Position numbers and translations under genes: made by a program. Shown here in pieces: positions 26,907 through 61,200 of a stretch of DNA of 64,000 nucleotides (position 1 is the first letter of the stretch; every line of letters starts with the position of its first letter). This stretch comes from a virus. The stretch is taken from IMG/VR virus record IMGVR_UViG_3300030114_000522. One strand, given 5' to 3'. Under the pieces are notes generated by a model. That model had not been told where the DNA came from. It did not search any database and worked only from the letters and a program-made list of their open reading frames with translations.

Positions 26907-28307
26907 TTAAAATCTTTTACTGCCAAAAGAACTAGATTGAGTTTCTGCAATAATAAAAGTATTAATAATATCTTCCTCATCAACCTTTTCATCTTTAATT
27001 TCTTTTTTAGCAGATATCTTTTTAATTTGCTTCTTTATTTCATCTCTAATTTCAGTGCTAGATTTAGGTTTTTGATAAAAAGCAAGAGTGGTCGAAACGT
27101 CCTTCATTTATATATTCATATAGGTTCGTTAACTCCTATATCGTTCTCTAATGAACTGCTTATGATTTCCCATAAGATTAGACTATATCACTCTCCTAAA
27201 TTAATAGGAGACTCACCATTTCCACATACTTATGTGTACTTCCCGAAGGAATAGTCGTTAGGCTTTTATAATTAAAAATTACTTTTAATTAATTTAGCAC
27301 GGTAGGTTAGCATGTCTTTTTAAAGATTTAGCCTTCCCCGTATTAAGCGAGTTATTCGAAATGGATTACTCCATTAAGCCACAAGTTTTAGGTTTATGGT
27401 TTAAATATCGACTGACTAAAGATGGGTCTATTCCATTGTTTAACATTGTATTTGAAGCGGTCTTTCTGATACAATGTGGATGGAAGTCTTCAAGCCCTAT
27501 GATTGTTCCTATTTTCTTAACCCTTGTATATAAATTTCCTTTAGACATTCTATTATATTGTTGTGAATACCGACTGATAAATAAAGCATCAATTTCTAAA
27601 TTGTCCATCTTTTCTTTTCTTATTTCTAACCATGCCATAATCAATTCTTTTGTATTGTCATTAAATGACACATCTACGTGATAGCCTTCTTTTTCTCTAA
27701 TATCTTTGAAACAACAATTATCTAAATCCATACTTGATAATGTAAGTTTTTCAATTGCTCCAAGTCTATTAGCTGAATCCAACATTACATTCCATAAAAC
27801 TAAATCTAATAAATCAAACTTATTATCTTTATTTTCTACTAGTCCAGTTTGTATTTGTTGAATTTCATCATCATTTAAAAAATAAGCATTAGTTATATGC
27901 TCATCTCTAGCACCTTTCATTCTATCTAATTGTTGAAATGGATGGTATTTAATTTCTTTTCTCTTTACACTCCATAGATAAAAACTAGATACCGAAGATA
28001 TCTTTGTATTTATAACCTTTTTATTATTCTGTAATTTATCTTGACAAAAACTCATAAAAGATTCCATTATATCTATTGAGTTAGTCATAAAATCTTCTGA
28101 ATATAAGTCAATATTATCCCATTCTTCTGCTAGGAAAACTAAAAATTGATTGAAATAGTTGGCATAAATTTTATACGTGCTATCTTTTACATCTTTATTG
28201 CGTATGATATTGCTTTTTAGGTATTTATCATATTTCTTCTGATTATCCTCATCTACTAAATCATTCTTTTCTTTAGTAAAATAATGTATGTGTACGCTTT
28301 TACCCAT
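26907..28307 (-). CDS. tyrosine recombinase, spliced: exons 28307-27396 and 27104-26907, 369 aa
   Basis: SANR, EKEG, HPHCIRK; junction YLNH/KDVSTTLAFY restores the H and catalytic Y motif. Confidence 0.88.
27105..27395 (-). ncRNA. ORF-less group I intron, 291 nt (IA2-like), copy A
   Basis: P1 CCAU/GUGG with U.G; P7 GACUAU/AUAGUC; P7.1 and P7.2 hairpins; ends AAAUG; removal restores the frame. Confidence 0.9.
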
Positions 28308-28331
28308 TGTTATATCAATTCCTTTCGTTAT

Positions 28332-29960
28332 TTAATTTGTTTTACTTATGAATATATTACTTTTTTCAAAAATCATATTATTGGTAGATAAATATTCTTG
28401 CAAAAATATAAAACCATATGAATTCTTATCTATATCTTTATAACATTTATTACCTTCAAATATTTCTTTATTATTACATTTGTCTTTTATTTTTTGAATG
28501 TTTTTAGTTATATAATAAAACATATTCATACATTTAGTTCTTTGTTTTAGATTAATGCTTATTAATATTTTATTATATTTTTCATAATCAACATAATTAT
28601 TTAATATTACTAATGCTGAGTTAGTAAATTTAACATTTATAGAACTACATATTTCTTTTACGCAATCTATATTTAATATTTCAGTTAAACTTGCAACAAC
28701 CGTTGATGAATCTAACATATCTATCAAATATCTTTTAGTATAAATACCATTAGGTAATTCTTTTAAAAGTTTTATTAATTTAAATTGATTGCCTTCCTCC
28801 CAAATGTTCAAATTGTCGGTTGGAATAGAAGTTTTGATTCCCAATATATCAAAATATTTAACTAATATGTAATTTATATTATTAAAATCCCAATAAGCAA
28901 TTCTTAATAATGGAATATTATTATCTTTACAATATTTTGTTTTAACACCATCATTAAATTGTGTCTTTTTAAATTGTATTTCTCCTCTTTTTGGTTCATA
29001 ATGCTGAATACCGTCATATTCAATTAAAAACATAACATTCCCTTCTTTAGATTTTATAGCTACGTCAAAAGGAAATCTTTTTTTATTTTTACAATCGGGA
29101 TACGTATATTGTTGTTTAAATTTAATTTTATTATATCTTAAAAATATTTCAATCACTTTTTCTCCTTTTGACGTAGCTTCACAAGTACATCGTGCGCCTT
29201 TTAAAATACTATCTGGTCTTACTTTATATTCTTTTCCACATTTATTATGTCTAATTAATATAGTGGTATGCGAACTAACATATTCTCCTAAAACCTCATA
29301 TTCTCCTTGATATGCTTGAAATATTTTTTCTTTAAACCATTGAGTATCTTTTGTTGCTCCAAATCCACAGAATCTACATCCTTTTCCTTGTAAAACATCT
29401 CCTGCCTGTCTATCATATACTCTTCCACAAGGAATGTGTTTTACTGTAACATTCTCCTTCCTACCCTTATATAATGATAGTATTTCAAACTCATTATCAA
29501 ATAATTTAGAAGTTCTAGCACAAAATTCTTCATGACTGATAAACAATTTATCAGCACCTTTTCTATTGCCACATTTAGGGCAACCATTCTTTTTATGCAA
29601 CATACCATCAGGAGTCATCTCAAATTCATATTGGCAATCTTCAGTATTATGTTTTAAAAGAATTTTGTTTTTAGCACTAGTATACTCACCTAAACAAATA
29701 TAATTATCTCCATATAATTCTTTTAATTCATTCTTAAAATAGTCAGTATCTTTATTCATTACTTTGTTGCTACATTTTGGGCAATGACAACCATTTTTTA
29801 AAAATCCATTTGCATTAATAGTCCAAGTATAATTATCCTCTTTACATCTAATAGTTATCTTTTTATCACAACTTTGATATTCTGTTAGAAATTCATACTT
29901 TTCATAACCTACTACTTCTAATACCTCTTTTACAAATTGTTCATGTGTTCTTTTTCTCAT
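28332..29960 (-). CDS. free-standing Zn-ribbon-repeat / PD-(D/E)XK (Vsr-like) endonuclease
   Basis: Repeated YEVLGEY..I.H..CG...CPKC units, then SKGE, FD, IEYDGIQHY, D..K..YC....IPLLRI. Confidence 0.75.
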   Translation of the reverse strand: MRKRTHEQFVKEVLEVVGYEKYEFLTEYQSCDKKITIRCKEDNYTWTINANGFLKNGCHCPKCSNKVMNKDTDYFKNELKELYGDNYICLGEYTSAKNKILLKHNTEDCQYEFEMTPDGMLHKKNGCPKCGNRKGADKLFISHEEFCARTSKLFDNEFEILSLYKGRKENVTVKHIPCGRVYDRQAGDVLQGKGCRFCGFGATKDTQWFKEKIFQAYQGEYEVLGEYVSSHTTILIRHNKCGKEYKVRPDSILKGARCTCEATSKGEKVIEIFLRYNKIKFKQQYTYPDCKNKKRFPFDVAIKSKEGNVMFLIEYDGIQHYEPKRGEIQFKKTQFNDGVKTKYCKDNNIPLLRIAYWDFNNINYILVKYFDILGIKTSIPTDNLNIWEEGNQFKLIKLLKELPNGIYTKRYLIDMLDSSTVVASLTEILNIDCVKEICSSINVKFTNSALVILNNYVDYEKYNKILISINLKQRTKCMNMFYYITKNIQKIKDKCNNKEIFEGNKCYKDIDKNSYGFIFLQEYLSTNNMIFEKSNIFISKTN

Positions 29961-30046
29961 TTTAATTCCTTCTTTCTTATTAAATTCTTATTTTTGTTTC
30001 TAGTTTTAGGTATAATAAAAACGCACCTTCAAATAAAGGAGCGTTA

Positions 30047-30238
30047 CTACTTACTTAATCCATTACTATATTTACTTAGATACTCTCTAAATTCATCACT
30101 ATCCTCGAATAGAAATACACTAAATCTAGGGTTGTCCTTATCTGGAACTACATTCAAGATGTCGTATTTCTTAGCCAAATAATTAGTCATTCTTAATGTC
30201 TTTGATGTATACAATATTTTCTTTTCCATACTTTCCAC
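30047..30238 (-). CDS. small DUF5659-like protein
   Basis: YL....ILNVVPDKDNPRFSVFLFE.S.EF..YL..Y pattern (family call by eye). Confidence 0.55.
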   Translation of the reverse strand: MESMEKKILYTSKTLRMTNYLAKKYDILNVVPDKDNPRFSVFLFEDSDEFREYLSKYSNGLSK

Positions 30239-30253
30239 TCTCCATATTTTAAT

Positions 30254-30868
30254 CTATTTTTTAATAACCTTTTTCTTAACAATTTTCTTTTTAGCTTTCT
30301 TTTCAGACATAGTTGCCTCGCGTTTTTCTCTTTTAATTCTTTCTTTTTCCATTTGTTCTAAGGTAGCTTGTACATTATATTTACAGTTCTCAAAGATAAA
30401 TATCATTTTAGATACTCCTTTTTCATAACTAGCCGTAGTTGTAATACTTTTAATAATAGAATAATTATCGTCTTGAATTACACCTAAATCACTGAAAGCG
30501 TCTAAATATTCTTTCACTCCACACCCAAAATTATCCAAATCATGTCTAATAGATGTACTAAAAACAAAATGCACTTTTAAATCAGTTTCACATATTCCTA
30601 ATATTTCAAGCCCCAGTTCTTTAAGAACGAATTCAGTATATAATCCTCGATTATGTTTATGATTATTTTGAACTATACGGTTTGTTATGACTAATATTTT
30701 ATTCATACTTCTACCAATCGGGCTATCTATTATAGGTTTATCTTTACCCGTTTTCTTTTCTTTTGACATTCTATGAGTTTTATAATACTCACTTAAAAAC
30801 CTGTCTAAATTATCTTGATTAAATTCCACAACTATTTTATCTTTCTGTCTCATATCTTTTACTTCCAA
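30254..30868 (-). CDS. RusA-like Holliday junction resolvase
   Basis: RHDLDN..K..LD....GVIQDD motif. Confidence 0.7.
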   Translation of the reverse strand: MEVKDMRQKDKIVVEFNQDNLDRFLSEYYKTHRMSKEKKTGKDKPIIDSPIGRSMNKILVITNRIVQNNHKHNRGLYTEFVLKELGLEILGICETDLKVHFVFSTSIRHDLDNFGCGVKEYLDAFSDLGVIQDDNYSIIKSITTTASYEKGVSKMIFIFENCKYNVQATLEQMEKERIKREKREATMSEKKAKKKIVKKKVIKK

Positions 30869-30975
30869 ATCTCATATTTTCACTTTTCCTTTCATATTTA
30901 ATTTCTATATTTTCACACAACAAAAAGAGCTTGTACAATTTTATACAAACTCTAAATAATTCTATTTATTTATTT

Positions 30976-31806
30976 TTAATCTAAATCTTCTATAATACTC
31001 AATAATTCTTCTTTACTTTTTCTAGTATATAGTCTGCTTGTCTCAATTGAAGCATGTCCACATAAATCAGCTATAACATCGATTTTAACATCAGCATCAG
31101 CTAGTCTTTTTGCATATTGGTGTCTATAGCTATGACAATGATTCTTCTCAAACTTTATATTAGCTAATTCTCCATATCTTTTTATTATTCTGTCAATACC
31201 ACTTCTAGTTAGTCTTCCTCTTTTCCCTACAAATAAATAATCCCAACCTTTATTAATTCTTCCTAGTTTGCAATAGTCAACCCATATATTGTTTAACACT
31301 TTAGGAATAAATACTGCTCTAATCTTATTACCTTTGCCGATAACTTGAATAGTATTCTTATGTATATCTTTTATCTGAATTTGAGTTACTTCACTTACCC
31401 TTAGACCAGTTAACTCAAGGCATTTAATTATTGCTATAGCCCTATAATCCTTTTTATTTCTAGCAATTTCAACCATACTATCAATTTCTTCTTTAGAAAT
31501 TACATTCTCTAAAAAGTTCTGAGATTGAATTTTAACCTTAGTAGTATTAGCAGGTATTTCACAAAACTTAAAATATTGATGAATTGCTATTAATTTTCTA
31601 TTAACAGAAGTAGGGGTTAAAAATCTTTTATATAATAAATATTCTTTATATTCCTTCAGAGTAATATTATGATATTCTTTTATATTGTGTTCAATAGAAT
31701 AATCTAAAAACTGGTGAATATCTTTTAGGTAAGCATTTATTGTTTTATCACTTTTTTCTCTTTCAATTAAGTAATTCTTAAATTCTTTAGTTTTTATTAA
31801 TTCCAT
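30976..31806 (-). CDS. XerC/D-like tyrosine recombinase
   Basis: TGLRVSE, GKGNKIR, HCHSYRH, LCGHASIETSRLYT. Confidence 0.92.
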   Translation of the reverse strand: MELIKTKEFKNYLIEREKSDKTINAYLKDIHQFLDYSIEHNIKEYHNITLKEYKEYLLYKRFLTPTSVNRKLIAIHQYFKFCEIPANTTKVKIQSQNFLENVISKEEIDSMVEIARNKKDYRAIAIIKCLELTGLRVSEVTQIQIKDIHKNTIQVIGKGNKIRAVFIPKVLNNIWVDYCKLGRINKGWDYLFVGKRGRLTRSGIDRIIKRYGELANIKFEKNHCHSYRHQYAKRLADADVKIDVIADLCGHASIETSRLYTRKSKEELLSIIEDLD

Positions 31807-32065
31807 TAATCATCACCTCATAATACTATTATATCATTATTGGGATGATAATTATAGTTATGTTGCGAACTTTATCCACAATTTCCATAACTCGAAGTAT
31901 TTTCTAATTCAAAATATAATTCTACCATCTATTCTAAGCAAATTTTAAATTTCAAAATAGTATTCATCAAGTAAGTTATCATTGAAAACCTCAAAAAATC
32001 CAAACCAGCTTCTTTTATTAGTATAAAACCTCATAATAAACAAATACTATTTATGAGGTTATTAA

Positions 32066-32272
32066 ATGAAATATTCTTCTAAAATAAAAATATCAGATAA
32101 ACTTACATTCTTTGTAATAGCATGTTTTTTATGTATTACATTTACATTAAAATTATACGATACCTTATCTTATGGTCAGTTAACATTCTCTATAATATTA
32201 ATGATACTTTTAATTCTTCTAATTCAAGTATTTGAAATAAAAGATAATTTATCATTGAAAAATAAAGACTAA
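32066..32272 (+). CDS. small two-TM membrane protein
   Basis: Two hydrophobic helices; SD GAGG inside a 10-bp hairpin. Confidence 0.6.
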   Translation: MKYSSKIKISDKLTFFVIACFLCITFTLKLYDTLSYGQLTFSIILMILLILLIQVFEIKDNLSLKNKD

Positions 32273-32287
32273 TATAGGAGGTAATTT

Positions 32288-32470
32288 ATGATTAATAGAT
32301 TTACTAAAAAATATTCAAAGCGTTCCACTAAAATAACTTTAGCTATATTATTATTTGATTGTATACTTTGGGGTTTCTATAGTATATCACATCATATATC
32401 TCCAATAATCCAATTGCCAGTAGCAGTAATATTTGTAGCTTGTGCAAGAGTAATTGATAGGTTAGACTAA
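32288..32470 (+). CDS. small two-TM membrane protein
   Basis: SD AGGAGG; basic N-terminus then two TM segments. Confidence 0.65.
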   Translation: MINRFTKKYSKRSTKITLAILLFDCILWGFYSISHHISPIIQLPVAVIFVACARVIDRLD

Positions 32471-32854
32471 AATTTTTATACTTTCTTTTACCTTTAATAC
32501 AATCAAATTCAAATAAACATCAATGGCACAAGTTTAAGTACAATAATATTCTGACACCTAAGTTTATTTTGTAGTCTATTTCAATTACAATAATTCTATG
32601 TTATAATAAATGTTTAATACTAAATTGCACAAACAAAAGAGTAGGAAGTACCCACGATGCTTTTCTATTCTTTTATTATTTTAATATGTATAGAATCTAT
32701 AAACATGGATACAATATTAATGTCATGAGGTAACTCTCGTTGATTATTTAATTTTCAGGAATAGGGAAGTTTGATTAATTTCATTCTTCTCTATTTTCAG
32801 TTTATAAGTATAAAATCTCGCTAACAAGTAAATACTAATCACGAGGTGATTTAA

Positions 32855-33043
32855 ATGAAACTTACTAAATTTGAAAAACGTTGGAGCAAAATAGCTGATA
32901 TAGTATTTATATTTAGTATTCCAATTTCAGCTATTATATTAATCCTAAGTTATTTCATTGATATTCCAAATGCTCATGAAACTTTTATTGGAGTATTAGT
33001 TACATTTATAGCAAGTCAATATATAAGAAAAATAGAGTTATGA
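32855..33043 (+). CDS. small two-TM membrane protein
   Basis: SD GAGGTG; same architecture as 32288-32470. Confidence 0.65.
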   Translation: MKLTKFEKRWSKIADIVFIFSIPISAIILILSYFIDIPNAHETFIGVLVTFIASQYIRKIEL

Positions 33044-33102
33044 TTAATAGTTTTATATTTGTAAAACTCGTCATTTTGTGAACTATTAATTATTGCAATA
33101 AA

Positions 33103-33148
33103 TTACATTCCTAGAACATATACGAATTATTTTACATTCCTAGAACAT
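33103..33148. repeat. 17-bp direct repeat x2 (TTACATTCCTAGAACAT), 29-bp period
   Basis: Exact copies at 33103-33119 and 33132-33148. Confidence 0.85.
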
Positions 33149-33210
33149 TGAAATCTTAAATATTAGCATGGTTGTCACATTATTAAATTTCATTATCTCT
33201 TGTTCTCAGA

Positions 33211-34146
33211 TTAGTCTATATTAAGTCTCATATTAAATAATCCTTGTAAATATTTTAAATCTTCTAATCTTGTTCCTTTATAAAATACTTTTGGGTTAAT
33301 TGTTATTAGTTTTTTATTCTTTATTTCATTAATACATACAACAGATTCTCCATTTACTGTCATATCCATTAATCTTTTTTTAAATCTTGTTATATTGGTT
33401 TGCCCTAATATATCCGCTATTTCATTTAAGGTATAAGGATGAATGTGTTCTAAAACTTCTTGGGTCACATCTTCATTTTTACATATTACATTATATCCAA
33501 AATTCAAATAGGGCAATAATTGAAATAGTAAAGCCAATTGTTTATGTTCTGTAGGTTTAGATTTTTCATATAATTCCTTTATCCCATTTTCAAACATTCT
33601 TGTTTTTCCTATCTTTTTATTTTTCATAATATCACCCTTCTTACAATATTTAGGATTTATACTTAAAGTTTTATCATCATTAATTATTAATAATTCTTTT
33701 TCAATGAGTTCTATTTTAGTGCTATATACTTCAGTCCTACTTAATTTTAATATTGATTGTAAATCTTCCTCGTATATTGGAATATGTCTTGTTGTTTTAT
33801 TTATAACCAATAAGTTATCATAATTTATATAACAACTTAAATATAAAAATCTTGTCAAGTGTTGTGGTTTTAGTTTGTCTAATAATCTATTATAAAAGTT
33901 AAAATAAAAATGTCCACAACCATCCAATATAGCTTCTTGAAATTCAGTTTTCTCCTTTTGCCATTGTAAAATTTCTTGTGTCTTTTCTTTCTTTTGCTCC
34001 TCCATATTAACAAAATCCATAGCTATATTTTCTAAACATTTAATATTAGGAGTTATTAATTCTCCATCTATTGTGACTAGTCCATTATTTTTCATTATAT
34101 TTACATAATCATTTATTTTTGCAGTATATTCTCCTGCCATAATCAT
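33211..34146 (-). CDS. RepL-like winged-helix DNA-binding/replication protein
   Basis: Two similar halves ending LSINPKYCKKG and ITINPKVFYKG; HTH-like TLNEIADILG. Confidence 0.5.
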   Translation of the reverse strand: MIMAGEYTAKINDYVNIMKNNGLVTIDGELITPNIKCLENIAMDFVNMEEQKKEKTQEILQWQKEKTEFQEAILDGCGHFYFNFYNRLLDKLKPQHLTRFLYLSCYINYDNLLVINKTTRHIPIYEEDLQSILKLSRTEVYSTKIELIEKELLIINDDKTLSINPKYCKKGDIMKNKKIGKTRMFENGIKELYEKSKPTEHKQLALLFQLLPYLNFGYNVICKNEDVTQEVLEHIHPYTLNEIADILGQTNITRFKKRLMDMTVNGESVVCINEIKNKKLITINPKVFYKGTRLEDLKYLQGLFNMRLNID

Positions 34147-34188
34147 CCTTCCCTTCTGTCATTTTAATTTGTTAAGAGTAATTACTAA

Positions 34189-34299
34189 ACGCCATATAAA
34201 GTAATAAAACTCTCCAAAAGAGAACTGGATTGGCGTAATCCTAATTCTCCTCGGAAGGATAAATTAAGATAACTTTTCAGTTACCTTTTGCAAAGTTCT
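34189..34299 (-). ncRNA. candidate structured leader RNA (multibranch, possible pseudoknot)
   Basis: Closing stem 34299-34285/34220-34206, GAAA and UCCG tetraloop hairpins, ACGCCA complementary to UGGCGU at 34194-34189. Confidence 0.5.
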
Positions 34300-34533
34300 A
34301 AGCTTAACAAAATTTATTTAATTTTTTAGTTATGAGTAATTTTAATTACGAAATAACAAATCAGCTTTAGCTGAAACCACCTCGTAGAGATAAATACATA
34401 ACAAAAAAGAAGGCTAAACCTAAATTCAACCTCCTTAATTGACATTAATTAATTTTTCAAAGCCAGCAATAACCTCATTTAAAAATCTAAATATTGTTAT
34501 AAATTTGTTATTTTATACTGACTTTGTATTATT

Positions 34534-34683
34534 TTAATTTGTTGCAATATAATCTTCTCCAACTATTTCTTTATATTGTTCTTCAGTTATTTTTTCTTTA
34601 ACTACCGCAACCTTAACATTATTCTTATCCCACCTATTTGAAGAATAAAAATCTATTATTTCTTTATACCAATCAATATCCAT
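34534..34683 (-). CDS. XkdX-family small protein (49 aa)
   Basis: MDIDWYKEIIDFY...V..AV.K.KITEEQYKEIVGEDY. Confidence 0.8.
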   Translation of the reverse strand: MDIDWYKEIIDFYSSNRWDKNNVKVAVVKEKITEEQYKEIVGEDYIATN

Positions 34684-35016
34684 CTACAATAAACCTCCAT
34701 TCATTAGCGAAAATAATATTACTGCATTATTATCTTGTAATTTATTATTTTGCTCTTCTAACTTTTTTATTTTATTTTCTTGCCATTTATCTTTTCCTAA
34801 AATAAAATAATCTCTACAATCTTCTAAATTAGAAATATCAATAATATCTCCATTATTTAAATTAATAGTGTCAGATTCTAAAACTATATAATCTGAACCA
34901 TTTCCCAATATAGAAATTGTATTATCTCCACTAATGCTTCCTTCATATGCTGATATTATGTTTTTTATTTTATTTTCAATTTGAAAACTATATTTATCAT
35001 ATACATAAGCTATCAT
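34684..35016 (-). CDS. tail-associated hypothetical protein
   Basis: 110 aa with C-terminal coiled coil, immediately before the XkdX-like gene. Confidence 0.65.
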   Translation of the reverse strand: MIAYVYDKYSFQIENKIKNIISAYEGSISGDNTISILGNGSDYIVLESDTINLNNGDIIDISNLEDCRDYFILGKDKWQENKIKKLEEQNNKLQDNNAVILFSLMNGGLL

Positions 35017-35029
35017 TATATATTACCTC

Positions 35030-36499
35030 CTAACTCTTTACTAATACATTAACATTAACATTTCTAGTTATTGTTGATAGATTTTTAATAGCAAGTGTAG
35101 TATCATTGACCACTTTTACTCCAAATCTTACAGTTGTTTCATCATAACTACCATAACTCGCATATTCAGTGTGTTGTGGTGTCACATAAACTAGTGTTAT
35201 TTTGCCTATACTTGGGGTAACCGTAATATCATTTGTGCTTAGTTGAAATGCTAAATCTAAATTTACTGGAGTTATTCCCAAACTATTTAAATCAGTTGCT
35301 AATGTTGTTTTTGGTAAATTAGTAAAATAAGTAGATAATTCGCTAAATTGATTACTACTAGTCCAATTTATAGCCATATCTCCTGTGAATTTGTGAATAC
35401 CTGTTCCATCTTTATATAACCAATTTGTTTTATTATCTACACTAAACAGACACTTAACAGATGTATTGGTCGGAGTTGTTATAGTCGAACTTAATGACTC
35501 TATCGTTTTTATTGGTGTAAGGTTAAAACTTGATTCTGAAGTTGTCATAAAGTTGGTTAGAAGACTAGATGGCAACATTAGTAATTCAGCAATCTGTAAA
35601 TAAGTATCTCCACCATTAGCCGTTATATTTATTCTATAATATAAATAATTTGTTGTGTTGGTAAAACTATATGATTTATAAGTTCCTGTAGACCAAGATG
35701 TTTGTGCTGTTCTTGTATCAAGTATTGTCCAGCTTATATCATCATTACTTCCTTCGAAAGTCCACGATACAGGAGAGCGAGTTGTAACAAATGTTGCAGT
35801 CGGGACTGGTAGTATTTTATAATTAGTTATACATTTAGAATTTTCAAATTGATATTTTAGCCATCCAGTTTTAACTGCATTTGTTGCCCAAGCATTTGAT
35901 GAAGAACCATTTCCATCGAATGCCAAATATGGGTAAACCTCGGGTAAATATGTACTTGCACTAGCAACTCCTTTAGGGGTAGTTGCACTTGTCATAGTTG
36001 GAATAATTGTATCTATTTTTAATTGTACTTTATTACTACTAAATATAATGTTATAAATATCTTGAAAAACGTATTTAATAACGTCACTAAAATCTACATG
36101 TATATCGGAAACAGTATTTCCTGATATTTCTTCTTTTACATTTAATATCATTTCATCTTCTGTTGCCGTAGGATGTATTAGCATAGCTTCTTGACCTGAT
36201 GTTAATGTAACAGGACTTCCACTAGGAACAATTATGTTTCCTGTGCCATTTACTATACCAGCGACAGCAACTGAAACCCATTCGTTTGTTCCAGTATTTC
36301 CATTATACATAAGCATTCTTTTATCAGCACGGGTAGAATCATCTATAGAGACATCATTGAGTTTTGTAGCGTTGCCACTAACAACTTTATTATCATATAT
36401 TAATTCTCCATTTGAATCTTCTGAAATTTTATCTATATATCCTTTATTACTATGTGAATGCACTTGTTTTAATATTATATTTTGTTTCACTTCCAACAC
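35030..36499 (-). CDS. tail fibre/receptor-binding protein with discoidin (F5/8 type C)-like domain
   Basis: AFDGN...W....WLKYQF...WTFEGSND..WTILD...YYRINIT. Confidence 0.7.
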   Translation of the reverse strand: MLEVKQNIILKQVHSHSNKGYIDKISEDSNGELIYDNKVVSGNATKLNDVSIDDSTRADKRMLMYNGNTGTNEWVSVAVAGIVNGTGNIIVPSGSPVTLTSGQEAMLIHPTATEDEMILNVKEEISGNTVSDIHVDFSDVIKYVFQDIYNIIFSSNKVQLKIDTIIPTMTSATTPKGVASASTYLPEVYPYLAFDGNGSSSNAWATNAVKTGWLKYQFENSKCITNYKILPVPTATFVTTRSPVSWTFEGSNDDISWTILDTRTAQTSWSTGTYKSYSFTNTTNYLYYRINITANGGDTYLQIAELLMLPSSLLTNFMTTSESSFNLTPIKTIESLSSTITTPTNTSVKCLFSVDNKTNWLYKDGTGIHKFTGDMAINWTSSNQFSELSTYFTNLPKTTLATDLNSLGITPVNLDLAFQLSTNDITVTPSIGKITLVYVTPQHTEYASYGSYDETTVRFGVKVVNDTTLAIKNLSTITRNVNVNVLVKS

Positions 36500-51528: not shown

Positions 51529-51726
51529 TTATTTGGTTTCTATTTCCATATAAAAAGAACTCAAAGCTTTAAATAACTCTGAGTTCTTTTTATATTTATA
51601 TGTACTTATTCCATTAATCTCTTTTACAAACGTATATTTTACACCAATAGATTCAAGATAATCTCTTTCGTAATTCCATTGCGTAGAATACTCTTTATCA
51701 AACTTAGATATGTTATGGTTTGTCAT
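51529..51726 (-). CDS. small protein, possibly DUF5659-like
   Basis: DYL...G.......YKY.K..ELFKAL..FY pattern; SD AAGGAG. Confidence 0.55.
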   Translation of the reverse strand: MTNHNISKFDKEYSTQWNYERDYLESIGVKYTFVKEINGISTYKYKKNSELFKALSSFYMEIETK

Positions 51727-51751
51727 ATTATTAAATCTCCTTTAATTAATT

Positions 51752-52672: not shown

Positions 52673-52763
52673 TTATAAATTCACCTACTTTCTATTATTA
52701 TTTCTAATTTTAAATATAATAAAAGACCTAGATTTCTCCAAGTCTTAATTTCATTATTTTTAT

Positions 52764-53621
52764 TTATTCTGAAAAATTATAGTCATCTAATTGTGTATAC
52801 CAATTAAAATTTGTTATATTTCCTTTATCATCATAATTTCTCCAAGTTAAAAATTTAGTAGATTCATAACCAACTTTCAAATTTGGATATTTATAAAAAC
52901 CAGTATAAAAACCACCCATAACTTTCTTATTATTCTTACTACAACCTGATATAAAAGCTTCCCCGATATATTTTTGATAATTTCTTAATAACTCTTTAGT
53001 TTTTTCTTTATCATTATCACTAATTTTAGTTGAATATTCTAAAAGATAGGGTGAGAAAAACGTTATTTCGTAAGGAGAATTGGTTATTTCACCAAAATCA
53101 GTTTGAACCCAACAATCATAATCAGATATACCTAATTTATCTGTATCGATAGTGAATTTAAATTTTAATTTTCCTATTGGTGTATCTAGTGTATTGTATT
53201 TAGTATTAAGACTATCTTGTAAATCAGATAATGACTCTACATTTGAAGTATTAGTATTTCCACTTGAATTATTGTTTACAGTATTAGTTTGAATATTATT
53301 ATTGATTATTTGTCCATTATTAATATTATTTATAATACTATTATTACTATTTATATTATTAGTAGTGTTTTGATTCCAAACTCCATTATTATCTATTTTA
53401 TATCCATTTATTTCAGTATTTGTAACCATATATCCACTCTTATCAAAATAATACCATTTAGAATCAATTTGTTTCCAACCTACAGAATATGAATTTCCTT
53501 CTGTATTCCACCAGCCTTGACTATCTGATTTCCATTCTGCATTTGCTCCTATGCTCGAAGTTCCTAAAATTGTGGTAGTTATAATTGTTAAAGCAATAAA
53601 TTTTTTGATAGATTTTAACAT
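52764..53621 (-). CDS. secreted cell-wall-binding-repeat protein (moron)
   Basis: Signal peptide ending ANA-EW, GWKQIDSKWYYFD repeat, Asn-rich linker, flanking hairpins. Confidence 0.8.
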   Translation of the reverse strand: MLKSIKKFIALTIITTTILGTSSIGANAEWKSDSQGWWNTEGNSYSVGWKQIDSKWYYFDKSGYMVTNTEINGYKIDNNGVWNQNTTNNINSNNSIINNINNGQIINNNIQTNTVNNNSSGNTNTSNVESLSDLQDSLNTKYNTLDTPIGKLKFKFTIDTDKLGISDYDCWVQTDFGEITNSPYEITFFSPYLLEYSTKISDNDKEKTKELLRNYQKYIGEAFISGCSKNNKKVMGGFYTGFYKYPNLKVGYESTKFLTWRNYDDKGNITNFNWYTQLDDYNFSE

Positions 53622-53754
53622 AGATTTCTCACGCTCCCTATATTATTATATAAATATACATTTACTTAGAACATTATACCACATTTTGTTCTTACTGGAT
53701 ATATTTATATAATAATACTTAATAAAAGGACTTAATAAAAATACTAAATCCTTT

Positions 53755-54915
53755 TTAAATACTAGGTACTGGATAAATTTTATGACATTCCATTGTCATA
53801 ACACCAGTAGGTTTAAGGTCAAATGTAACACTGTCAATTAGCCATCTCCCTTCAATAATTATATCATCAAATGTATATTTAATTTCAATAATTCTATTTG
53901 GAATTAAATGATATATAGGTATTAATTCTAAAGTTATAGTTTCTGCTAAATTACTAGCTTGTTGTAGTTGGTATTTGCATTTGGCTTGACATTGTGCGTC
54001 TAAATATAATTTATCATCAGTATAAGTCTTTCTATGTACTCCTATTTTATCAACCGAGAAAGGTGTTCCTGTATCATTTACCATTTCATATAAATACTGA
54101 TAAGTTGAGCTATCTTCTGAATCTGAAACGGTGGCACCAAATACCTTTATTTTATTCCTGATATTTTCAAAATTTTTCTTATAATCGATAGATATTATTC
54201 TTTCATCTTGATTAAGCGATTCAATTGCTAAATCAGTTGTTTTATCTTTTATTGATTGATAACAAAAATATCCATTTTCGTCAAAAAATATTTCAGTATC
54301 TAAATAAAATTCTTGCATTGCTTTAAGTATATCTCCATATGTACTATCAGAACTATATGTTTGGTCACTACCTAAAGTATAAATAAGTGCTTCTATTTTT
54401 CTCTTACTGTAATTCATTTTTTCCGTATCGTTCAATAGACTATATAATATTGTTGTAATTAAGGTATCGGCAGTATAAATAAGAGATACTGGTAAACTAC
54501 CACCAAAAGTACCATTGAAATTATTCATAATGTCACAAATAGTTAATGATATTGTCCTTTCTGATTTACTTAACTTAATATCTGGTGAATTTAAAAGATA
54601 TATTCCTAAATTAAACTCTGCTTTAATATCTGTATTTAAATCATCTTGAACTATTATAAAGATTTGTATATAATTTCTTAAACTAATCTTAAAGTAATCT
54701 GTATTTAAATCTTTACTACTAATTAAAGTTAATGTTCCATCTCTTCTAAGTTGTCCATCATTTTTAAGGGAAATAGAACCTGTAACTATATCTCCTTCTA
54801 AACTAGAAACTTTATTAAGATTTTCATTTAGTAAATCAACTCTACAAGTTACAGTTCTATTCGTTGATTTACATGCTAAATATTGGTTATTTTGATTCAT
54901 ATTAGTATCAGCCAC
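53755..54915 (-). CDS. baseplate hub/tail tip-like protein
   Basis: EIFFDENGYF, NKIKVFG, WLIDSVTFDL; two genes after the tape measure. Confidence 0.65.
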   Translation of the reverse strand: MADTNMNQNNQYLACKSTNRTVTCRVDLLNENLNKVSSLEGDIVTGSISLKNDGQLRRDGTLTLISSKDLNTDYFKISLRNYIQIFIIVQDDLNTDIKAEFNLGIYLLNSPDIKLSKSERTISLTICDIMNNFNGTFGGSLPVSLIYTADTLITTILYSLLNDTEKMNYSKRKIEALIYTLGSDQTYSSDSTYGDILKAMQEFYLDTEIFFDENGYFCYQSIKDKTTDLAIESLNQDERIISIDYKKNFENIRNKIKVFGATVSDSEDSSTYQYLYEMVNDTGTPFSVDKIGVHRKTYTDDKLYLDAQCQAKCKYQLQQASNLAETITLELIPIYHLIPNRIIEIKYTFDDIIIEGRWLIDSVTFDLKPTGVMTMECHKIYPVPSI

Positions 54916-54946
54916 TTATTTATCACCGCCTTAAATTTTAATCTAT

Positions 54947-55234
54947 CTACCAACAATTCCAATCTTTCTTATCAATTATCCAAGATTGATTTGAGTTACC
55001 ATTAAAATACATAATTATTACAATGTTTCCCACTGATAAATCTAAGTTGCTCCTTGCTGGAATTTTAAAAATTTCATCATTTATTTTTATAGTATAGATA
55101 TTACTTCCATCTATTGGAGCAACAGTAACCACTCCCATACTATTCATTCTTGTTATTGCGTTATTTTCAACTGCATCGTTAGAATGTTTCTGCATTGCTC
55201 TTGCAAATCTTTTTCCGAATGATATTTCCGACAT
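54947..55234 (-). CDS. small OB-fold-like tail protein
   Basis: 95 aa, GVV...YTIKI...L.VG..V pattern. Confidence 0.55.
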   Translation of the reverse strand: MSEISFGKRFARAMQKHSNDAVENNAITRMNSMGVVTVAPIDGSNIYTIKINDEIFKIPARSNLDLSVGNIVIIMYFNGNSNQSWIIDKKDWNCW

Positions 55235-55285
55235 TTACATTTCACCTCTTTTAAGGTAGAGAAATTAATCTCTACCTCCTTTTAA

Positions 55286-58200
55286 TTAATTTGATAAATT
55301 TGTTTCACTTTCAACTGCTTCAAGCATACTCTTAATAAATTCTTCAGCATTATTTGCATTAACTTTAACATCTGTAATACTATATTGATTTATTGTTTTA
55401 GCATTAGAATTATTATTTGTTGTACTATTAGTAGATGATAATAAATTAGAACTATCTAATGTATATGATGATAAACCACTATAAGCCGATGTTTCAGTAT
55501 AATTTGCTTTTGCCTTATCACTATATAATGGGTTATTAGAATCATTATATAAACTTAATTTTGAACTAGTTAAATCTAATACTGATTGTTTATATTTTTC
55601 AAAATTAGCTAATTCTTGAGATATGTCTATAGAATTCATAGGTGTAAAATTTTTATCGCCCTCATGCATATTATTATACATCTCTTGAAATTTAACATAT
55701 GAGGATTCCATATCTACTAATAATTGCATTATTAAATCACTACTACTGGTCGCAATACTTACAATATTAGTAAATCTATAATCATAAATTATTTGAACCA
55801 ACTCTAAGAACTTGTCTGTAAATTTAGTATATATATTAGCAAAATTCTTTAAGCTGTTTTGTTGGTCACTTTGTGCTTTTGTTTGCTTATCAAATAATTT
55901 TTTATAATATGAATCATATTCATCTTCAAGCTTTTTATCAGTATCTTGTAAATTTTTTAGATTTTCATTCAGTCCACTTGAATCAATATTTACTATATTA
56001 TTGATTTGATTTTTTCTATTTTTTATATCTTCTTCACTTATTATACTACTATCTTTTTTAGATAATAAATCATCATAAGTTTTAGATAATTGTGTTAAAG
56101 ATTCATTGGCATTATTAGCACTTGAACCAATACTTTTTAAATGATTATCTATATCATTATTATCTACTTTTGATTTTTCAGTAATTTTGTCCTTATTTTT
56201 TTGTAAATACTTTGATATATCTCCACTATTAATAGCATTATCTGCATCATTAGTTGTAAAATTAGCTCTTAATGTTGTTAATTCTTCTAATGATTTTTTA
56301 GTTTTAGTTAATGTTGCATCTATAGAGTTTGCTATTGCATTCCAATCATTATTATTATTTTCCACCAATTTTCCCAATGTATCTTTTGCTAATTTATCAA
56401 TATCTGAATAATAATTTTCAATACGCCTTTTATCTCTATCTTGTGCTTCTTTTAAATTATCACTGTATTTGTCTAGATATTCTTTCTTTTTTTTATATGA
56501 ATTTTCTTCTTCTGTTTTTTCAGATTCAAGAACTTTCTTTTTTTTATCTAATTCATCTTTTCGTTTAATGTCTTCTAAATCTTTATTTGCATCTGTAACT
56601 GCTTTTTTATCATCTATGATTGTTTTTTGAGATAAAACATATTGATACTGCCAACTACCATCATTTTGCTGAACTAAAGTTTGTACACTTCTTTGTTTTT
56701 CATCTCTTGCTAATTGTGCTTCTTTTTCTTTAAGAGTATTATTTTTTTCTTGTAAAGCATTGGCTTTTTCAATTGCATCATTTTCATCATCTAAAGCTTT
56801 TAATTCAGATGCAAATGCTTCTAATTTTGCATTATGAATATCTTCTTCTTTTGTTTTTATAGCATCTAATTTATCATTTTGAGCTTTTTGTTGTGCTTCC
56901 AATTTTTGAGTATCAATTTCTTTTTGTTTTTCTAATATAGATTTCTCTTGTTCTTGTATGGTTTTTTCCATTTCTTGATTTAACTTATAAACTTCAAGTG
57001 TTTGAGTTCGTAGTTCTTTATTTGCTTTAAGTGTTGCATTTTCTAATGATTCATTCGCTTCTGCTGTTGATACTGTAGTATTTTTTAAAGCATCTAGTTG
57101 TTCTTGTGCCTTTTGAACTTCTTCTTTTTGCTTAGCAATTTTTTGAGTAGTTAAATCAATTCTTTGAGTGAAATTAGAGTCATCAGCTTCGCCTAAAGTA
57201 GTTATACTAGCGTCTATTTGTTCTATATCATCTGCTATTGTTTCTTTGCCTTTATTATAAGCATCGGTGATATCGTCTATCATTTTCTTTTCCCGTGCTA
57301 TTAATTCTTGTTCGGCTTTTTTAGACTTAGAAGCAGAGCTACCATCTGGTTCATAACTAGAATCTGATACTCCTCCAGCAGAACTAGTAGGTAATGTCAT
57401 TGAAGTATATAATTTATCTATTGCATCTTTACCAGCTTTTAGCTTTGCTAATTCTTCTTTATCTTTATTTATTTTATCTGCATTATCTGATACTTCTTGT
57501 ACATCTGAACTCGCTTGCCATGCATCTACTGGTGCTGTTGAAGCAGATGAAGCTAAGGTTATTTTTGCATCGATTAATTTTTGAATTTCACCTATTTCTG
57601 CTTGATAATCAGCAATACGAGCAAGTGTATCTGTATATGTTATAGATGTATTATTATACTGCCATGTCGCATTGGCTTTTTGGTCTTCTAATTTTACTTG
57701 AGTTAAAACTTCAACCGTTTTTCCTTCAGTATTCATGTAACTAATAGTATCACTAATTAATCCAGTATTGGTAATATAAGTTTTACCATTAGCATCCATT
57801 TGTGTATCTAAGTTTCCAATTTTTCCTTGTAGTTGTTCTACTACACCAGTTAGTTCTTTCTTTTGTTCTGTTGATAAATTTTCTTGTGCTGATAAATTAT
57901 TATAGGTAGCATATAAACTTTGAACTGTTTCCATATATTTATTATATTCTTCTGTATTTGCTTCGGTATTAGTTCTATGTTCAACTTGTGCTTTTGTTTC
58001 TTCTTTTATTTTATTAACCATATCAATATTAGCAATTTGTTGTTCCGCTTCTGCTAAAGTATCTGTACTAATACCAGCTTTTTTCATAACGTCGGAATAT
58101 TCATCTACTTGTTTATTTAGTCCACTTAAAATGTCTCTTAATTGTTGTGCTTCGGTTAATCCATTTTGACCAACTATTTTAGTTTCGCTTGCGTTATTTA

Positions 58201-61200
58201 ATTTATCTTGCGTTTCTTTTTTTAAATTCATTAGTCTTTCTAATTCAGCTTGGTCTTTTTTAATTTTATCTAAATTAGTTGAGGCACCTTTTGTATCACC
58301 ATTTTTAAGACTCTCATTTACACCATCTAGTGCAGTTTTTAGGTCATTAGATTGCTTTGCTAAACTTGCTTCATGTTGTTGGTATGAAACCATACCGTAT
58401 ACTACCATTGCTAATGCACCTGCTAAAGCTGATAATAATAAACCTAAAGGCGTTAACATAAAAGCAACTGCTGATGCTGTAGCGCCTTTTATACTAGTTC
58501 CGACTAAACCAAATGCAGTAGCTAATCCCGTTGCTCCATCTTCTAAAGCAATCATTCCTGATGCTATTCCCATAAATTTAGTTAGTCCAGTTACGATTCC
58601 ACCCTCAGTAGTTAATAACATTAATTCTTTATTAATTTTAGATAATTTAGTCATGACTAGAACTAATGAACCTATTGTTGCTATATATGCTATTGTTTTT
58701 CCATCAACATTTGATAATACATTTACTAGTTGAGTTGCTTCTGTAACAAAATATTTTAAAGAATCAGAAGACATTATTTTTTCATATAGTCCTTCAAATG
58801 ACCTTTTTAAATCATTTACTTTTGCGTCTAATGAACCATTGTAGGCTTCGTCCATCATTTTCTTTGCAGAGCCAGCAGATTCTCCTACTTGTTTTTGATG
58901 GATATTCAAAGTATCCATATTTTCCATTAATCCCATTAATGTTTCTCTTTGCCTTGTGCATTTACTTTTATTTATAAACGTTACTTTATAAATGTGATTA
59001 TTTAATCACCACTCTCTTTCAAGACGTTAATAAGACTATTTCTTCACCTTCATCTATTTATTTAATTAAATAATGTTAAGGGCATATCTTTTCCACTATC
59101 AATAACTTATAGTGTACTCCCTGTCGGGATAGTCGTTCAACACATTCCTATTCGGAACTTCGCTACCAAATTTCCATTATATTATTTATTTTATTAAATA
59201 ATCAACCACTTAGGATTTAACCATATAGTCATACCTTACGTTTTTAATAGTTTCCCACATTCACACTTGCCCATATTTCATAGCTATGTTGTAGTGTAAG
59301 GTCTTTAGGGTTTACTGGTTTTAGATATGTGTCCTATGCACATTTCTGTACATACGGGGCAGATTTACCCGCTAAAGCTTGAATTCCAGCCAAATAATCA
59401 ACTTGGCTTAGTTGTCCACTTTTAAATTTTGTCATAAATTGTTGCAAAACATCATCAAATTCTTTAAATTGTCCTTTATTAGTTCTAATTGATATTCCGA
59501 TACGATTCATTGCTAATTCTGTATCATTAATTGATTTCCCTTCATCATCTAATCGACCAAGTTTGATGTTACTATATCGTGAGTAGATTGTTTTAAAACT
59601 TTCACCTCATTTATATATTCATATAGGCTCGTTAACTCCTATACCGTTCTCTAATGAACTGCTTATGATTTCCCATAAGATTAGACTATATCACTCTCCT
59701 AGATTTAATAGGAGACTCACCATTTCCATTCACTTGAATGTACTCCATTACTGGATAGTCGTTAGGCTTTTATGATTAAAATTACTTTTAATTAATTTAG
59801 CACGGTAGGTTAGCATATTACTTTAGCAACTTAGCCTTCCCCGTATTAAGCGAGTTATTCGAAATGGATTACTCCATTAAGCCACAAGTTTGTAGTTTAT
59901 GGTTTCGGCACTTTTTCTTGTTTTTTCTGATACTGTCGTAATATATGCTACAAGATTACCTAATGGTGTTCCTGCTTCTTGGGCACTAAAAGCAGTTCTT
60001 TGTATTGCAGATGCTATTTCTTTAAATGAACTAGCCGAAACATTATCCATTTTAGATATCATATCTACAACGCCTTGCATACTTTCACCTGTCATATTAA
60101 AGGCATTTTTAATAGCAATTAATTGTTGAGTTACTTCTTCCGTAGACTGTCCAGAAACTTTAGAACCTATAATAGATGAAGACATCAGAGCTTCTCCTTC
60201 TTTTCCATCTATACCAGCTCTAGTAATTTCTTCCATACCTGTCATCATTTCAGTATTAGTAGTATGTAATTCCGCTCCTAATTGTTTATATTGAGTTACC
60301 ATTCCACTAATTTCAGATTTAGACTTTCCTGTAATCATTTGCATATTTGTGAGAGACTTATTCATGGTTAAAGTGTATTCACTAGCATCTTTAAACTGAT
60401 TTGCTATACCCCATATAACTTGTTGGATTCCATAAAACATTCCAATTTTACTTAAAAAATTAGTCATATTCCCGAAGAATCCGTTACTATTTATTCCTTT
60501 TAATGAATTATCTAATTGTTTAGTTTCATTATTAGTTTGTTCCATAGAAGTTTTTACAGTACCTAAACTATTTTTTATCCCTGTAAAATTAACTCCATCT
60601 ACTTGTTTTAGTTCTGCTAATAATTTTTTTAACTCTTGTTCTGTAGATTCTATAAATCCACTGGGTAATTTCTCTGCAAAAGTTTGTTTCATTTTCTCTA
60701 CTTTTATATGAGCTTCTTCTATTTGCTTGGTCAGATTAGATACAGTAGTTTCCCTACTAGTACTAGTTCCGATAGAACTTAATGCACTATTAATTTCTTT
60801 TAAAGTTGACGCACTTTTAGTCATTTGTTCTAATTTACTAATTTCAGAATTACTAATTATTCCATTTGATTTAAGAACATTAATTGATTGATACGCCTGT
60901 TCTTGCTTTTGTAATAATTCTTGTTCTTGTTGTAATTGTTTTACATTATCAGAATCACCTTTAACTTGTCTTTTTTGGTCTGATTCAACTAATTTATTAC
61001 TTAATTCAACTTCTTTTTGTAATTGTTGAATACGTTCCTGTTCTTGCTTTTGTAGATTTTGTTCTTCTACTTCTAATATTTTTACTTGGTTTAATAAATT
61101 TTTTAATTCATTATCAGAACCTATATTAGTTGTTGAAAGTCCATTTTGTAAATCCCCAATTTTATCTTTGTTTATGACTCCATTAGAAGACATCTTGTTT

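What the first reader, a model, noticed from the sequence alone, without database searches (positions are those of the whole stretch)
27105..59898. The same 291-nt ORF-less group I intron sits in two unrelated genes at a shared AAACCAT target
Seen: 27105-27395 (tyrosine recombinase) and 59608-59898 (tape measure) are both 291 nt and differ at about 30 positions by hand count. Both follow exon sequence AAACCAU, which pairs with the same guide (CCAU/GUGG with U.G). Their 3' exons (AAG..., AGGU...) both pair with the ACUU before it (P10). Insertion phase differs: after a whole His codon in one, inside an Ile codon in the other. Differences cluster in peripheral hairpins and keep pairing: UUCC-UUCG-GGAA vs UCCA-GUAA-UGGA, and ACAU-AAGU-AUGU vs AUUC-AAGU-GAAU. 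Established: endonuclease homing moves introns between alleles of one gene, while movement to a new gene has been proposed to occur by guide-directed reverse splicing. Inference: this is a natural case of an endonuclease-free ribozyme colonising heterologous genes through a roughly 7-9 nt match, with both copies still under selection to splice.
Basis: partly seen in the sequence, partly recalled or inferred. Interest (0 to 1): 0.88.

Follow-up and report, generated by a model that had tools for sequence, protein, structure and literature searches.

The report
One ORF-less ribozyme intron, three sites
A small self-splicing group I intron with no gene of its own sits, about 90% identical, in two unrelated genes of a large uncultivated phage and at a third site in related phages, and the sites share only the few bases that pair with the intron's guide, which suggests but does not prove that the guide directed the intron's moves.

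Summary
Window 27105-27395 and 59608-59898 (minus strand) are both 291 nt. They differ at 28 bases plus 2 gaps, and each scores as an Rfam group I intron (64 and 62 bits; threshold 50). One splits a tyrosine recombinase just before its catalytic Tyr. The other splits the tape measure protein (TMP). Intronless homologues confirm both junctions.

In public viral and metagenome contigs I found five more variants of this intron (83-95% identical). They sit at the recombinase site and at a third site 31 codons further into the TMP gene. All seven carry the same guide, GUGGCUU. The three sites share only CCAU. Empty alleles read UCAU, CUAU/CAAU or GCAAU.

All variation lies in peripheral elements, mostly hairpins. 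Ten base pairs show compensatory double changes. The hairpin versions are reshuffled among copies regardless of site.

Guide-dependent movement to new genes is the best reading. Reverse splicing itself is not shown: no reverse transcriptase was found in four related phage contigs (all fragments or incomplete by CheckV estimate) and no RNA data could be obtained. The intron is also not endonuclease-free in context, because free-standing homing-endonuclease-like genes lie upstream of both host genes.

It is a new member of a known kind. First-stage notes on this same window had already flagged the neighbouring introns and nucleases.

The parts
27105..27395 (-). Copy A: 291-nt ORF-less group I (IA2-type) intron in the tyrosine recombinase gene
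   Evidence: RF00028 64 bits. Canonical P1-P9.2 fold with P7.1/P7.2. Begins after exon ..AAACCAU and ends in omega-G at 27105.
27376..27382 (-). Internal guide sequence GUGGCUU of copy A (intron positions 14-20)
   Evidence: Pairs with exon CCAU (U.G, A-U, C-G, C-G), then an A.C mismatch, then two A-U pairs. Invariant in all 7 family members.
27396..28307 (-). Recombinase exon 1, ending ..Y L N H
   Evidence: Pfam Phage_integrase PF00589, profile positions 3-157 of 172, E 2.9e-20. The last 15 profile positions, including the catalytic Tyr, are missing from this exon.
26907..27104 (-). Recombinase exon 2 (K D V S T T L A F Y ...), which supplies the catalytic Tyr motif
   Evidence: In frame with exon 1 after intron removal. 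Intronless homologues L041/L042 read continuously ..H A N H K S T D T T L L Y.. across the junction.
59608..59898 (-). Copy B: 291-nt ORF-less group I intron in the tape measure gene (TMP site 1)
   Evidence: RF00028 62 bits. 28 mismatches plus 2 gaps relative to A. All core helices identical to A.
59879..59885 (-). Internal guide sequence GUGGCUU of copy B
   Evidence: Same sequence and same pairing as in copy A.
59899..61676 (-). TMP exon 1, ending ..S A E T I(AT)
   Evidence: Pfam PhageMin_Tail PF10145, profile positions 3-133 of 201. TMP homologues in G001, G002 and G003 are continuous across this point.
59367..59607 (-). TMP exon 2 (241 nt; (A) G E S F K T I Y S R Y ...), followed by a second, unrelated intron
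   Evidence: PF10145 profile positions 145-187. Collinear with the G001/G002 TMP.
28332..29960 (-). Free-standing homing-endonuclease-like gene (542 aa) directly upstream of the recombinase gene
   Evidence: phrog_559 (E 5e-77), phrog_9084 'homing endonuclease' and phrog_7140 'intron encoded nuclease'. A 66% identical homologue holds the same position in G003/G004. It is absent in L022, which still has the intron.
62343..63701 (-). Free-standing homing-endonuclease-like gene (452 aa) two genes upstream of the TMP gene
   Evidence: phrog_4538, phrog_559 and phrog_9084. Homologues sit upstream of the TMP gene in G001 and G003, whichever TMP site is occupied there.

Best explanation
Copies A and B belong to one family of small (285-294 nt), ORF-less, splicing-competent IA2-type group I introns. 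The family circulates in a lineage of large (about 200 kb), low-GC, uncultivated phages. It has colonised at least three sites in two unrelated genes: the recombinase site (LNH|K), TMP site 1 (ETI|G, seen only in this window) and TMP site 2 (LAM|N, seen in relatives). The guide GUGGCUU stayed unchanged while the sites changed. I therefore infer that the guide chose the new sites: the excised intron RNA reverse-spliced after an exon ..CCAU that pairs with it, and the product was then fixed in DNA. Once in place, copies are inherited vertically and probably also spread by recombination between co-infecting phages. The neighbouring free-standing endonucleases may help this spread (trans or 'collaborative' homing). 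Copies at different sites also exchange peripheral hairpin modules by recombination. Shown here: the ribozyme identity, the exact junctions, the three sites, the constant guide, the empty-site sequences, the compensatory changes and the mosaicism. Inferred: actual splicing, reverse splicing as the insertion step, and any role for the endonucleases.
For: Both copies exceed the Rfam threshold. A full canonical fold has 95% of cells paired and 10 pairs with changes on both sides, against 0 in all six slid-partner controls. Intronless homologues confirm the junctions: recombinase and TMP. There are seven distinct intron sequences at three sites, all with an identical guide. The exon flanks of the three sites share only CCAU. 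Positions -5 to -7 pair in different ways: A.C, A-U, A-U at two sites and G-C, U.U, U.U at the third. That pattern fits RNA pairing better than a fixed protein recognition site. Empty alleles each lack one C, always at a synonymous third codon position: AAT CAT, ACT/ACA ATA and ACT ATT, GCA ATG. No donor exon sequence accompanies the intron. The identity of A to B (90.5%) equals that between copies at the same site in different phages (87-93%), so movement or exchange between sites is recent on the phage timescale. B shares its P6a hairpin only with A, the copy in the same genome. The review PMC3984707 describes reverse splicing as needing four to six bases complementary to P1.
Against: No reverse transcriptase family (RVT_1) was found in the four related phage contigs, so a cDNA step would need a host enzyme. 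Those contigs are fragments or incomplete by CheckV estimate. Any insertion mechanism followed by selection for splicing in an essential gene would leave only guide-compatible sites, so the site pattern does not separate RNA-level from DNA-level insertion. The 7-nt AAACCAT shared by A and B could equally be a microhomology used in DNA repair. Endonuclease-like genes lie next to both host genes. Sixteen other AAACCAT heptamers in the window are unoccupied, so insertion is rare in any case. PMC3984707 states that the reverse-splicing transposition pathway has no direct experimental support.
Confidence: 0.5

Rival explanations
1. DNA-level ectopic insertion. A double-strand break near the target, for example one made by a neighbouring free-standing endonuclease, was repaired illegitimately using the resident intron copy as template and the short AAACCAT/CCAT microhomology. 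Only events that were precise and guide-compatible survived, because the TMP and the recombinase must be spliced to function.
For: Homing-endonuclease-like genes lie upstream of both host genes and are syntenic in relatives. The conserved TMP core is an intron hotspot with at least four sites, as expected near a nuclease target. A member of the same nuclease family sits inside the second TMP intron of G002. No reverse transcriptase was found. Illegitimate repair is the other published route to ectopic sites (PMC3984707).
Against: Both junctions are exact at all three sites. The 3' junction has at most 1 nt of microhomology, and no donor exon bases were carried along. The two nucleases are only distantly related to each other, and the sites share no extended sequence a protein could recognise. 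L022 keeps the recombinase intron without the adjacent nuclease gene. The TMP-linked nuclease is present whichever TMP site is occupied, so it is not tied to site 1.
Confidence: 0.3
2. Trans-mobilised, IStron-like or IS200/IS605-like single-strand DNA transposition. The element would be a non-autonomous passenger inserted 3' of a short target (CCAT) by a Y1 transposase encoded elsewhere.
For: Insertion is always immediately 3' of the same tetranucleotide, with no target duplication. This resembles IS200/IS605 behaviour, and IStrons do combine a group I ribozyme with such an IS (PMC4227781, listed; general knowledge).
Against: No Y1_Tnp gene was found in the four related phage contigs. The 291 nt are fully accounted for by ribozyme helices P1-P9.2, leaving no room for IS ends. 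All copies lie in sense orientation inside genes.
Confidence: 0.05
3. Artefact, or a simple DNA duplication or misassembly that placed one intron sequence at two places.
For: None beyond the fact that the sequence is repeated.
Against: The copies differ at 30 positions, in a compensatory pattern. Each restores a conserved reading frame that intronless homologues confirm. Independent contigs from other samples carry the recombinase-site copy. No exon homology flanks the copies.
Confidence: 0.02

Closest known systems
TMP-IVS1 / TMP-IVS2 group I introns of Bacillus cereus-group prophages (Tourasse and Kolsto 2008, PMC2504315)
   Same: They are IA2-type introns, closely related to each other and sitting at different positions of a phage tape measure gene. 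The TMP gene is an intron hotspot with three sites there. Some of those introns lack a complete endonuclease gene, and how they reached different phages was called puzzling.
   Different: There the two introns are only 80% identical, and P1 and the guide have diverged to fit each site. Here the copies are 83-95% identical and the guide is invariant. The exon sites match the guide, and one of the sites lies in an unrelated gene (a recombinase).
Related nuclear rDNA group I introns at different rDNA positions, taken as evidence for reverse-splicing spread (Bhattacharya et al. 2005, PMC1299323; reviewed in PMC3984707)
   Same: This is the same argument: related introns at heterologous sites linked by guide complementarity. 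[quoted passage not shown]
   Different: Those cases are in eukaryotic rRNA genes. Here the hosts are two unrelated protein-coding genes of a phage. Empty and occupied alleles are available for all three sites, and the copies are near-identical.
Collaborative (trans) homing of ORF-less phage introns by adjacent free-standing endonucleases (two phage systems reviewed in PMC3984707, its refs 72 and 76)
   Same: [quoted passage not shown] The recombinase locus here has exactly this layout, and the layout is syntenic in G003/G004.
   Different: The cleavage sites of these nucleases are unknown. L022 has the intron without the nuclease gene. Collaborative homing explains spread between alleles of one gene, not the jump between genes.
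Multi-intron phage genes such as orf142 of Staphylococcus phage Twort (cited in PMC11878797; further detail from general knowledge)
   Same: Small ORF-less IA2 introns, several of them in one structural gene. The nearest DNA matches to copy A in GenBank phages are introns of Staphylococcus, Bacillus and Enterococcus myophages, at about 70-79% identity over the 3' core.
   Different: No deposited phage carries this intron: one record covers at least 80% of it, at 70% identity. The host phage is also remote from deposited phages (TMP at most 25% identical).

Membership tests
Group I catalytic intron (Rfam RF00028), subgroup IA2-like | Score above the curated covariance-model threshold | tested here: met
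   64.0 and 62.0 bits against a gathering score of 50, with the full model matched at positions 1-253.
Group I catalytic intron (Rfam RF00028), subgroup IA2-like | Canonical helices P1-P9 including the P3/P7 pseudoknot, supported by comparative data | tested here: met
   76 pairs in 13 helices, with 95.1% of cells paired. Ten pairs change on both sides, against 0 in all six slid-partner controls. The core helices are invariant, so the covariation support comes from P5a, P7.1, P7.2 and P9.
Group I catalytic intron (Rfam RF00028), subgroup IA2-like | U.G wobble at the 5' splice site and a terminal G (omega-G) at the 3' end | tested here: met
   Exon U(-1) pairs with G14 in all 7 sequences, and every intron ends in G.
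Group I catalytic intron (Rfam RF00028), subgroup IA2-like | Extra hairpins P7.1 and P7.2 between P7 and P3', the IA2 hallmark as recalled from the Michel-Westhof classification | tested here: met
   Two hairpins at intron positions 145-156 and 160-173 are both supported by compensatory changes. The subgroup rule itself comes from general knowledge and was not re-derived here.
Group I catalytic intron (Rfam RF00028), subgroup IA2-like | Self-splicing activity | not testable with these tools
Splicing is inferred from restored reading frames that match intronless homologues.
Reverse-splicing (guide-directed) transposition of a group I intron | Related introns at heterologous sites whose 5' exon pairs with an unchanged guide, without donor exon sequence | tested here: met
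   Three sites, an invariant guide and a shared CCAU only; no flank homology.
Reverse-splicing (guide-directed) transposition of a group I intron | A route from RNA back to DNA (a reverse transcriptase) | tested here: not met
   No RVT_1 match in G001-G004. The window's own genome is not held and the host is unknown, so this is weak negative evidence.
Reverse-splicing (guide-directed) transposition of a group I intron | Demonstrated reverse-splicing reaction into the target RNAs | not testable with these tools
   Needs in vitro assays.
Collaborative (trans) homing system | A free-standing homing-endonuclease gene adjacent to a gene that holds an ORF-less intron | tested here: met
   The nuclease gene 28332-29960 ends 25 bp before the recombinase start. 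A second, 62343-63701, lies two genes upstream of the TMP gene. Both match PHROG nuclease families, and the arrangement is syntenic in relatives.
Collaborative (trans) homing system | The endonuclease cleaves the intronless allele at or near the intron insertion site | not testable with these tools
   Needs a cleavage assay. L022 carries the intron without the nuclease gene.

The most novel reading that the evidence does not exclude
This phage lineage preserves a natural, recent record of a group I ribozyme moving between unrelated protein-coding genes by guide-directed reverse splicing. Occupied and empty alleles exist for all three sites, and copies at different sites still trade structural hairpin modules. 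It would be the clearest circumstantial case outside rDNA for a pathway that still lacks direct evidence, and its parts are small enough to test in vitro.
Probability: 0.45. Interest if true: 0.8.

Novelty: new member of a known kind. Interest (0 to 1): 0.6.

Why it matters
How endonuclease-less group I introns reach new genes is an old open question. The 2014 review PMC3984707 says that reverse-splicing transposition has no direct experimental support, and that its best circumstantial support comes from rDNA introns. This intron family offers a compact test set. It has one 291-nt ribozyme and one constant guide. It has three natural target sites in two unrelated genes. It also has natural empty alleles that each differ from the occupied allele by one synonymous base. 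Forward and reverse splicing into the occupied-type and empty-type RNAs can therefore be compared directly. The neighbouring free-standing nucleases can be tested on the same DNAs. The reshuffling of compensated hairpin modules among copies also shows that ribozyme copies at non-allelic sites evolve as one recombining pool.

Tried and rejected
Whole-window Rfam scans, with gathering and with E-value thresholds, found nothing. This is a filter effect, because sub-window scans find both introns.

No whole genome is held for the window.

GenBank phages hold no close copy. The best hits are about 70-79% identical over the 3' core, in Staphylococcus, Bacillus, Enterococcus and Lak phages.

Two pattern scans of bacterial and archaeal genomes found nothing, so no host could be assigned.

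A looser 20-mer from the P7-P9 core pulled in 14 more viral loci. Their 5' halves and guides are unrelated, and most carry ORFs. I therefore did not count them as family members or as extra sites.

An Rfam scan of the G003 TMP locus found nothing, although a different group I-like intron is visible there by eye.

An HMM of the intron core found no fifth intron in the window. That model was built from the four known cores, so it is a weak negative.

As a result no transcript or read-level test of splicing or of presence/absence variation was possible, and read laying was not used.

RNAalifold alone gave a non-canonical fold that pairs the guide with P6. I replaced it with the canonical structure guided by the Rfam alignment and tested that structure instead.

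I considered and set aside misassembly, independent ancient insertions with convergent guides, and IStron-like transposition.
Full report
**The observation**

On the minus strand, 27105-27395 (copy A) and 59608-59898 (copy B) are each 291 nt. A global alignment shows 28 mismatches and 2 one-base gaps. Both copies follow exon AAACCAT and end in AAATG. Outside these boundaries the alignment collapses: similarity is limited to the 7 upstream bases and +1 A.

Rfam's group I model scores 64.0 bits on A and 62.0 bits on B, against a gathering score of 50. Whole-window scans miss both because of the speed filters. No ORF longer than 30 codons lies inside the intron.

**Host genes and junctions**

Copy A splits a tyrosine recombinase. 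Exon 1 (27396-28307) matches Pfam Phage_integrase positions 3-157 of 172. Exon 2 (26907-27104) begins K D V S T T L A F Y and so supplies the catalytic Tyr segment. Two intronless homologues from viral contigs (L041 and L042, 56% identical) read straight through as ..H A N H K S T D T T L L Y... This fixes the junction after the His codon.

Copy B splits the tape measure protein (TMP). Exon 1 (59899-61676) covers PhageMin_Tail positions 3-133 and exon 2 covers positions 145-187. TMP homologues in three related contigs are continuous across this point (..S A S T I G E S F K..). This fixes the junction inside the Ile codon (AT|A).

**Structure**

I placed the canonical group I helices on an alignment of seven distinct family members. 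The helices are P1, P2, P3, P4, P5, P5a, P6, P7, P7.1, P7.2, P8, P9, P9.1 and P9.2.

- 95.1% of cells form standard pairs.
- Ten pairs have changes on both sides.
- All six controls with slid partners have none, and only 33-43% of cells paired.
- P2, P3, P4, P5, P7 and P9.1 are invariant.
- All variation lies in peripheral elements: the P1 loop, P5a, P6a, P7.1, P7.2, the P8 loop and closing pair, distal P9, the P9.1 loop and P9.2.

Every member has the U.G wobble at the 5' splice site and a terminal G.

**More copies and a third site**

Pattern scans of IMG/VR and JGI metagenome contigs recovered five further distinct sequences, 285-294 nt long and 83-95% identical overall.

- Three variants sit at the same recombinase site: the G003 type (on eight contigs across the two collections, one of them held in both), L019 and L022.
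- Two variants (G001 and G002) sit at a third site in the TMP gene, 31 codons downstream of copy B's site. The flank there is ..UUGCCAU|GAAU, inside the Met codon of T E L A M N.
- Copy B's own site is occupied only in this window.
- Each relative holds a single close copy.

**What the sites share**

The guide GUGGCUU is identical in all seven introns. The exons share only CCAU, which forms U.G, A-U, C-G and C-G with the guide. Further upstream, the recombinase site and TMP site 1 continue with A.C, A-U, A-U. TMP site 2 continues with G-C, U.U, U.U.

P10 is 3 bp at the recombinase site, 4 bp at TMP site 1 and 2 bp at TMP site 2, so it is not a common requirement.

The empty alleles are informative:

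| Site | Occupied allele | Empty alleles |
|---|---|---|
| Recombinase | AAC CAT | AAT CAT |
| TMP site 1 | ACC ATA | ACT ATA, ACA ATA, ACT ATT |
| TMP site 2 | GCC ATG | GCA ATG (this window and G003) |

In each case the occupied allele carries a synonymous C that completes CC. This is in a genome with 27% G+C. AAACCAT itself is common: 18 copies in the window against 17 expected. The match is therefore necessary for occupancy but far from sufficient.

**Mosaicism**

The peripheral hairpins occur as discrete, fully compensated versions, and these are shuffled regardless of site.

- Copy B shares P5a and P7.1 with L022, a recombinase-site intron.
- It shares P7.2 with G002 (TMP site 2) and L019 (recombinase site).
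- It shares P6a only with A, the copy in the same genome.
- Of 528 pairs of informative columns, 345 fail the four-gamete test, giving a minimum of about 9 exchange events. A few of these columns, at the 3' end, may be alignment noise.

The identity of A to B (90.5%) matches that between copies at the same site in different phages (87-93%). The flanking recombinase exons of this window and its relatives are only 63-74% identical. The copies therefore behave as one recombining pool, and movement or conversion between sites is recent relative to phage divergence.

**Context**

The window is part of a large phage. It carries gyrase A and B, an NAD-dependent ligase, an anaerobic ribonucleotide reductase, a GH25 lysin with choline-binding repeats, and tail genes. 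Its TMP is at most 25% identical to any deposited phage. Related contigs are 196 kb (with terminal repeats) and 218 kb.

The window holds four group I cores in all: A, B, a dissimilar ORF-less intron after TMP exon 2, and an intron carrying an HNH ORF in nrdD.

Free-standing genes matching PHROG homing-endonuclease families lie directly upstream of the recombinase gene and two genes upstream of the TMP gene. The first is syntenic in G003 and G004. It is missing in L022, which still has the intron. The second has homologues upstream of the TMP gene in G001 and G003, whichever site is occupied there.

**Mechanism**

The constant guide, the exact junctions, the absence of donor exon sequence, and sites that resemble each other only in how they pair with the guide all fit reverse splicing as the literature describes it. 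The review PMC3984707 gives the requirement as four to six bases complementary to P1, and also states that the pathway has no direct experimental support.

There are three points against a firm call.

- No reverse transcriptase was found in four related contigs, all of them fragments or incomplete by CheckV estimate.
- Any insertion route followed by selection for splicing would leave the same pattern.
- Nuclease genes next to both loci make a DNA-break route plausible, and the TMP core is a hotspot with at least four intron sites.

I put guide-directed reverse splicing at about 0.5 and nuclease-triggered illegitimate repair at about 0.3. An IStron-like route is about 0.05, since no Y1 transposase was found. 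An artefact is about 0.02.

**Comparison with known cases**

The closest precedent is the pair of TMP introns IVS1 and IVS2 in Bacillus cereus-group prophages. They are 80% identical, but their P1 and guide diverged to fit each site (PMC2504315). Here the guide did not change, and one of the sites lies in an unrelated gene. The rDNA cases use the same logic in eukaryotes (PMC1299323). Searches of the held literature found no equivalent phage case, but the library is incomplete.

**Verdict**

The intron is a new member of a known kind (an IA2-type phage group I intron). Its distribution gives an unusually clean, testable circumstantial case for guide-directed ectopic spread.

Noticed in passing
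window 58959-59366 (-): A second ORF-less group I intron, unrelated in sequence, follows TMP exon 2 (weak RF00028 hit of 23.7 bits; core found). G001 lacks it and reads ..A L A G T R Q R E... With the usual 5' site after GGU (59367) and terminal G at 58959, one extra C puts the 1216-aa exon out of frame. A 5' site one base earlier (after GCGGG, giving a G-C pair instead of U.G) would be in frame. This is unresolved.
   Followed up: partly
window about 11200-12339 (+): A group I intron carrying an HNH endonuclease ORF (11318-12094) splits the anaerobic ribonucleotide reductase gene nrdD. Exon 1 covers Pfam NRDD positions 17-206 and exon 2 covers positions 258-556. The intron's candidate 3' end is ..AUAAAUG at 12339.
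   Followed up: partly
window 28332-29960 (-) and L022:4619-5173: The 542-aa endonuclease-like gene is itself an insertion. In L022 the homologue of the 204-aa gene (window 30254-30868) abuts the intron-containing recombinase gene, with no nuclease gene between them.
   Followed up: yes
L026:6950-7330 (G003 TMP): The G003 tape measure gene has a different group I-like intron at a fourth site (after ..S I Y S R L). Its sites 1 and 2 are empty. The conserved TMP core is therefore an intron hotspot in this phage lineage. Rfam did not detect this intron.
   Followed up: partly
L024:4081-4506 (G002 TMP): In G002 the intron after ..A L A G T R holds an ORF 36% identical to part of the window's free-standing 542-aa nuclease. 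The same nuclease family therefore occurs both free-standing and inside an intron.
   Followed up: no
window 30976-31806 (-): A second, uninterrupted XerC/D-like tyrosine recombinase (276 aa) lies about 2.7 kb upstream of the intron-split one.
   Followed up: no
whole window: Method note: Rfam scans of the full 64 kb, at either threshold, report no group I intron although four are present. Only sub-kilobase to 1.4-kb scans find them (vs 6, 12).
   Followed up: yes
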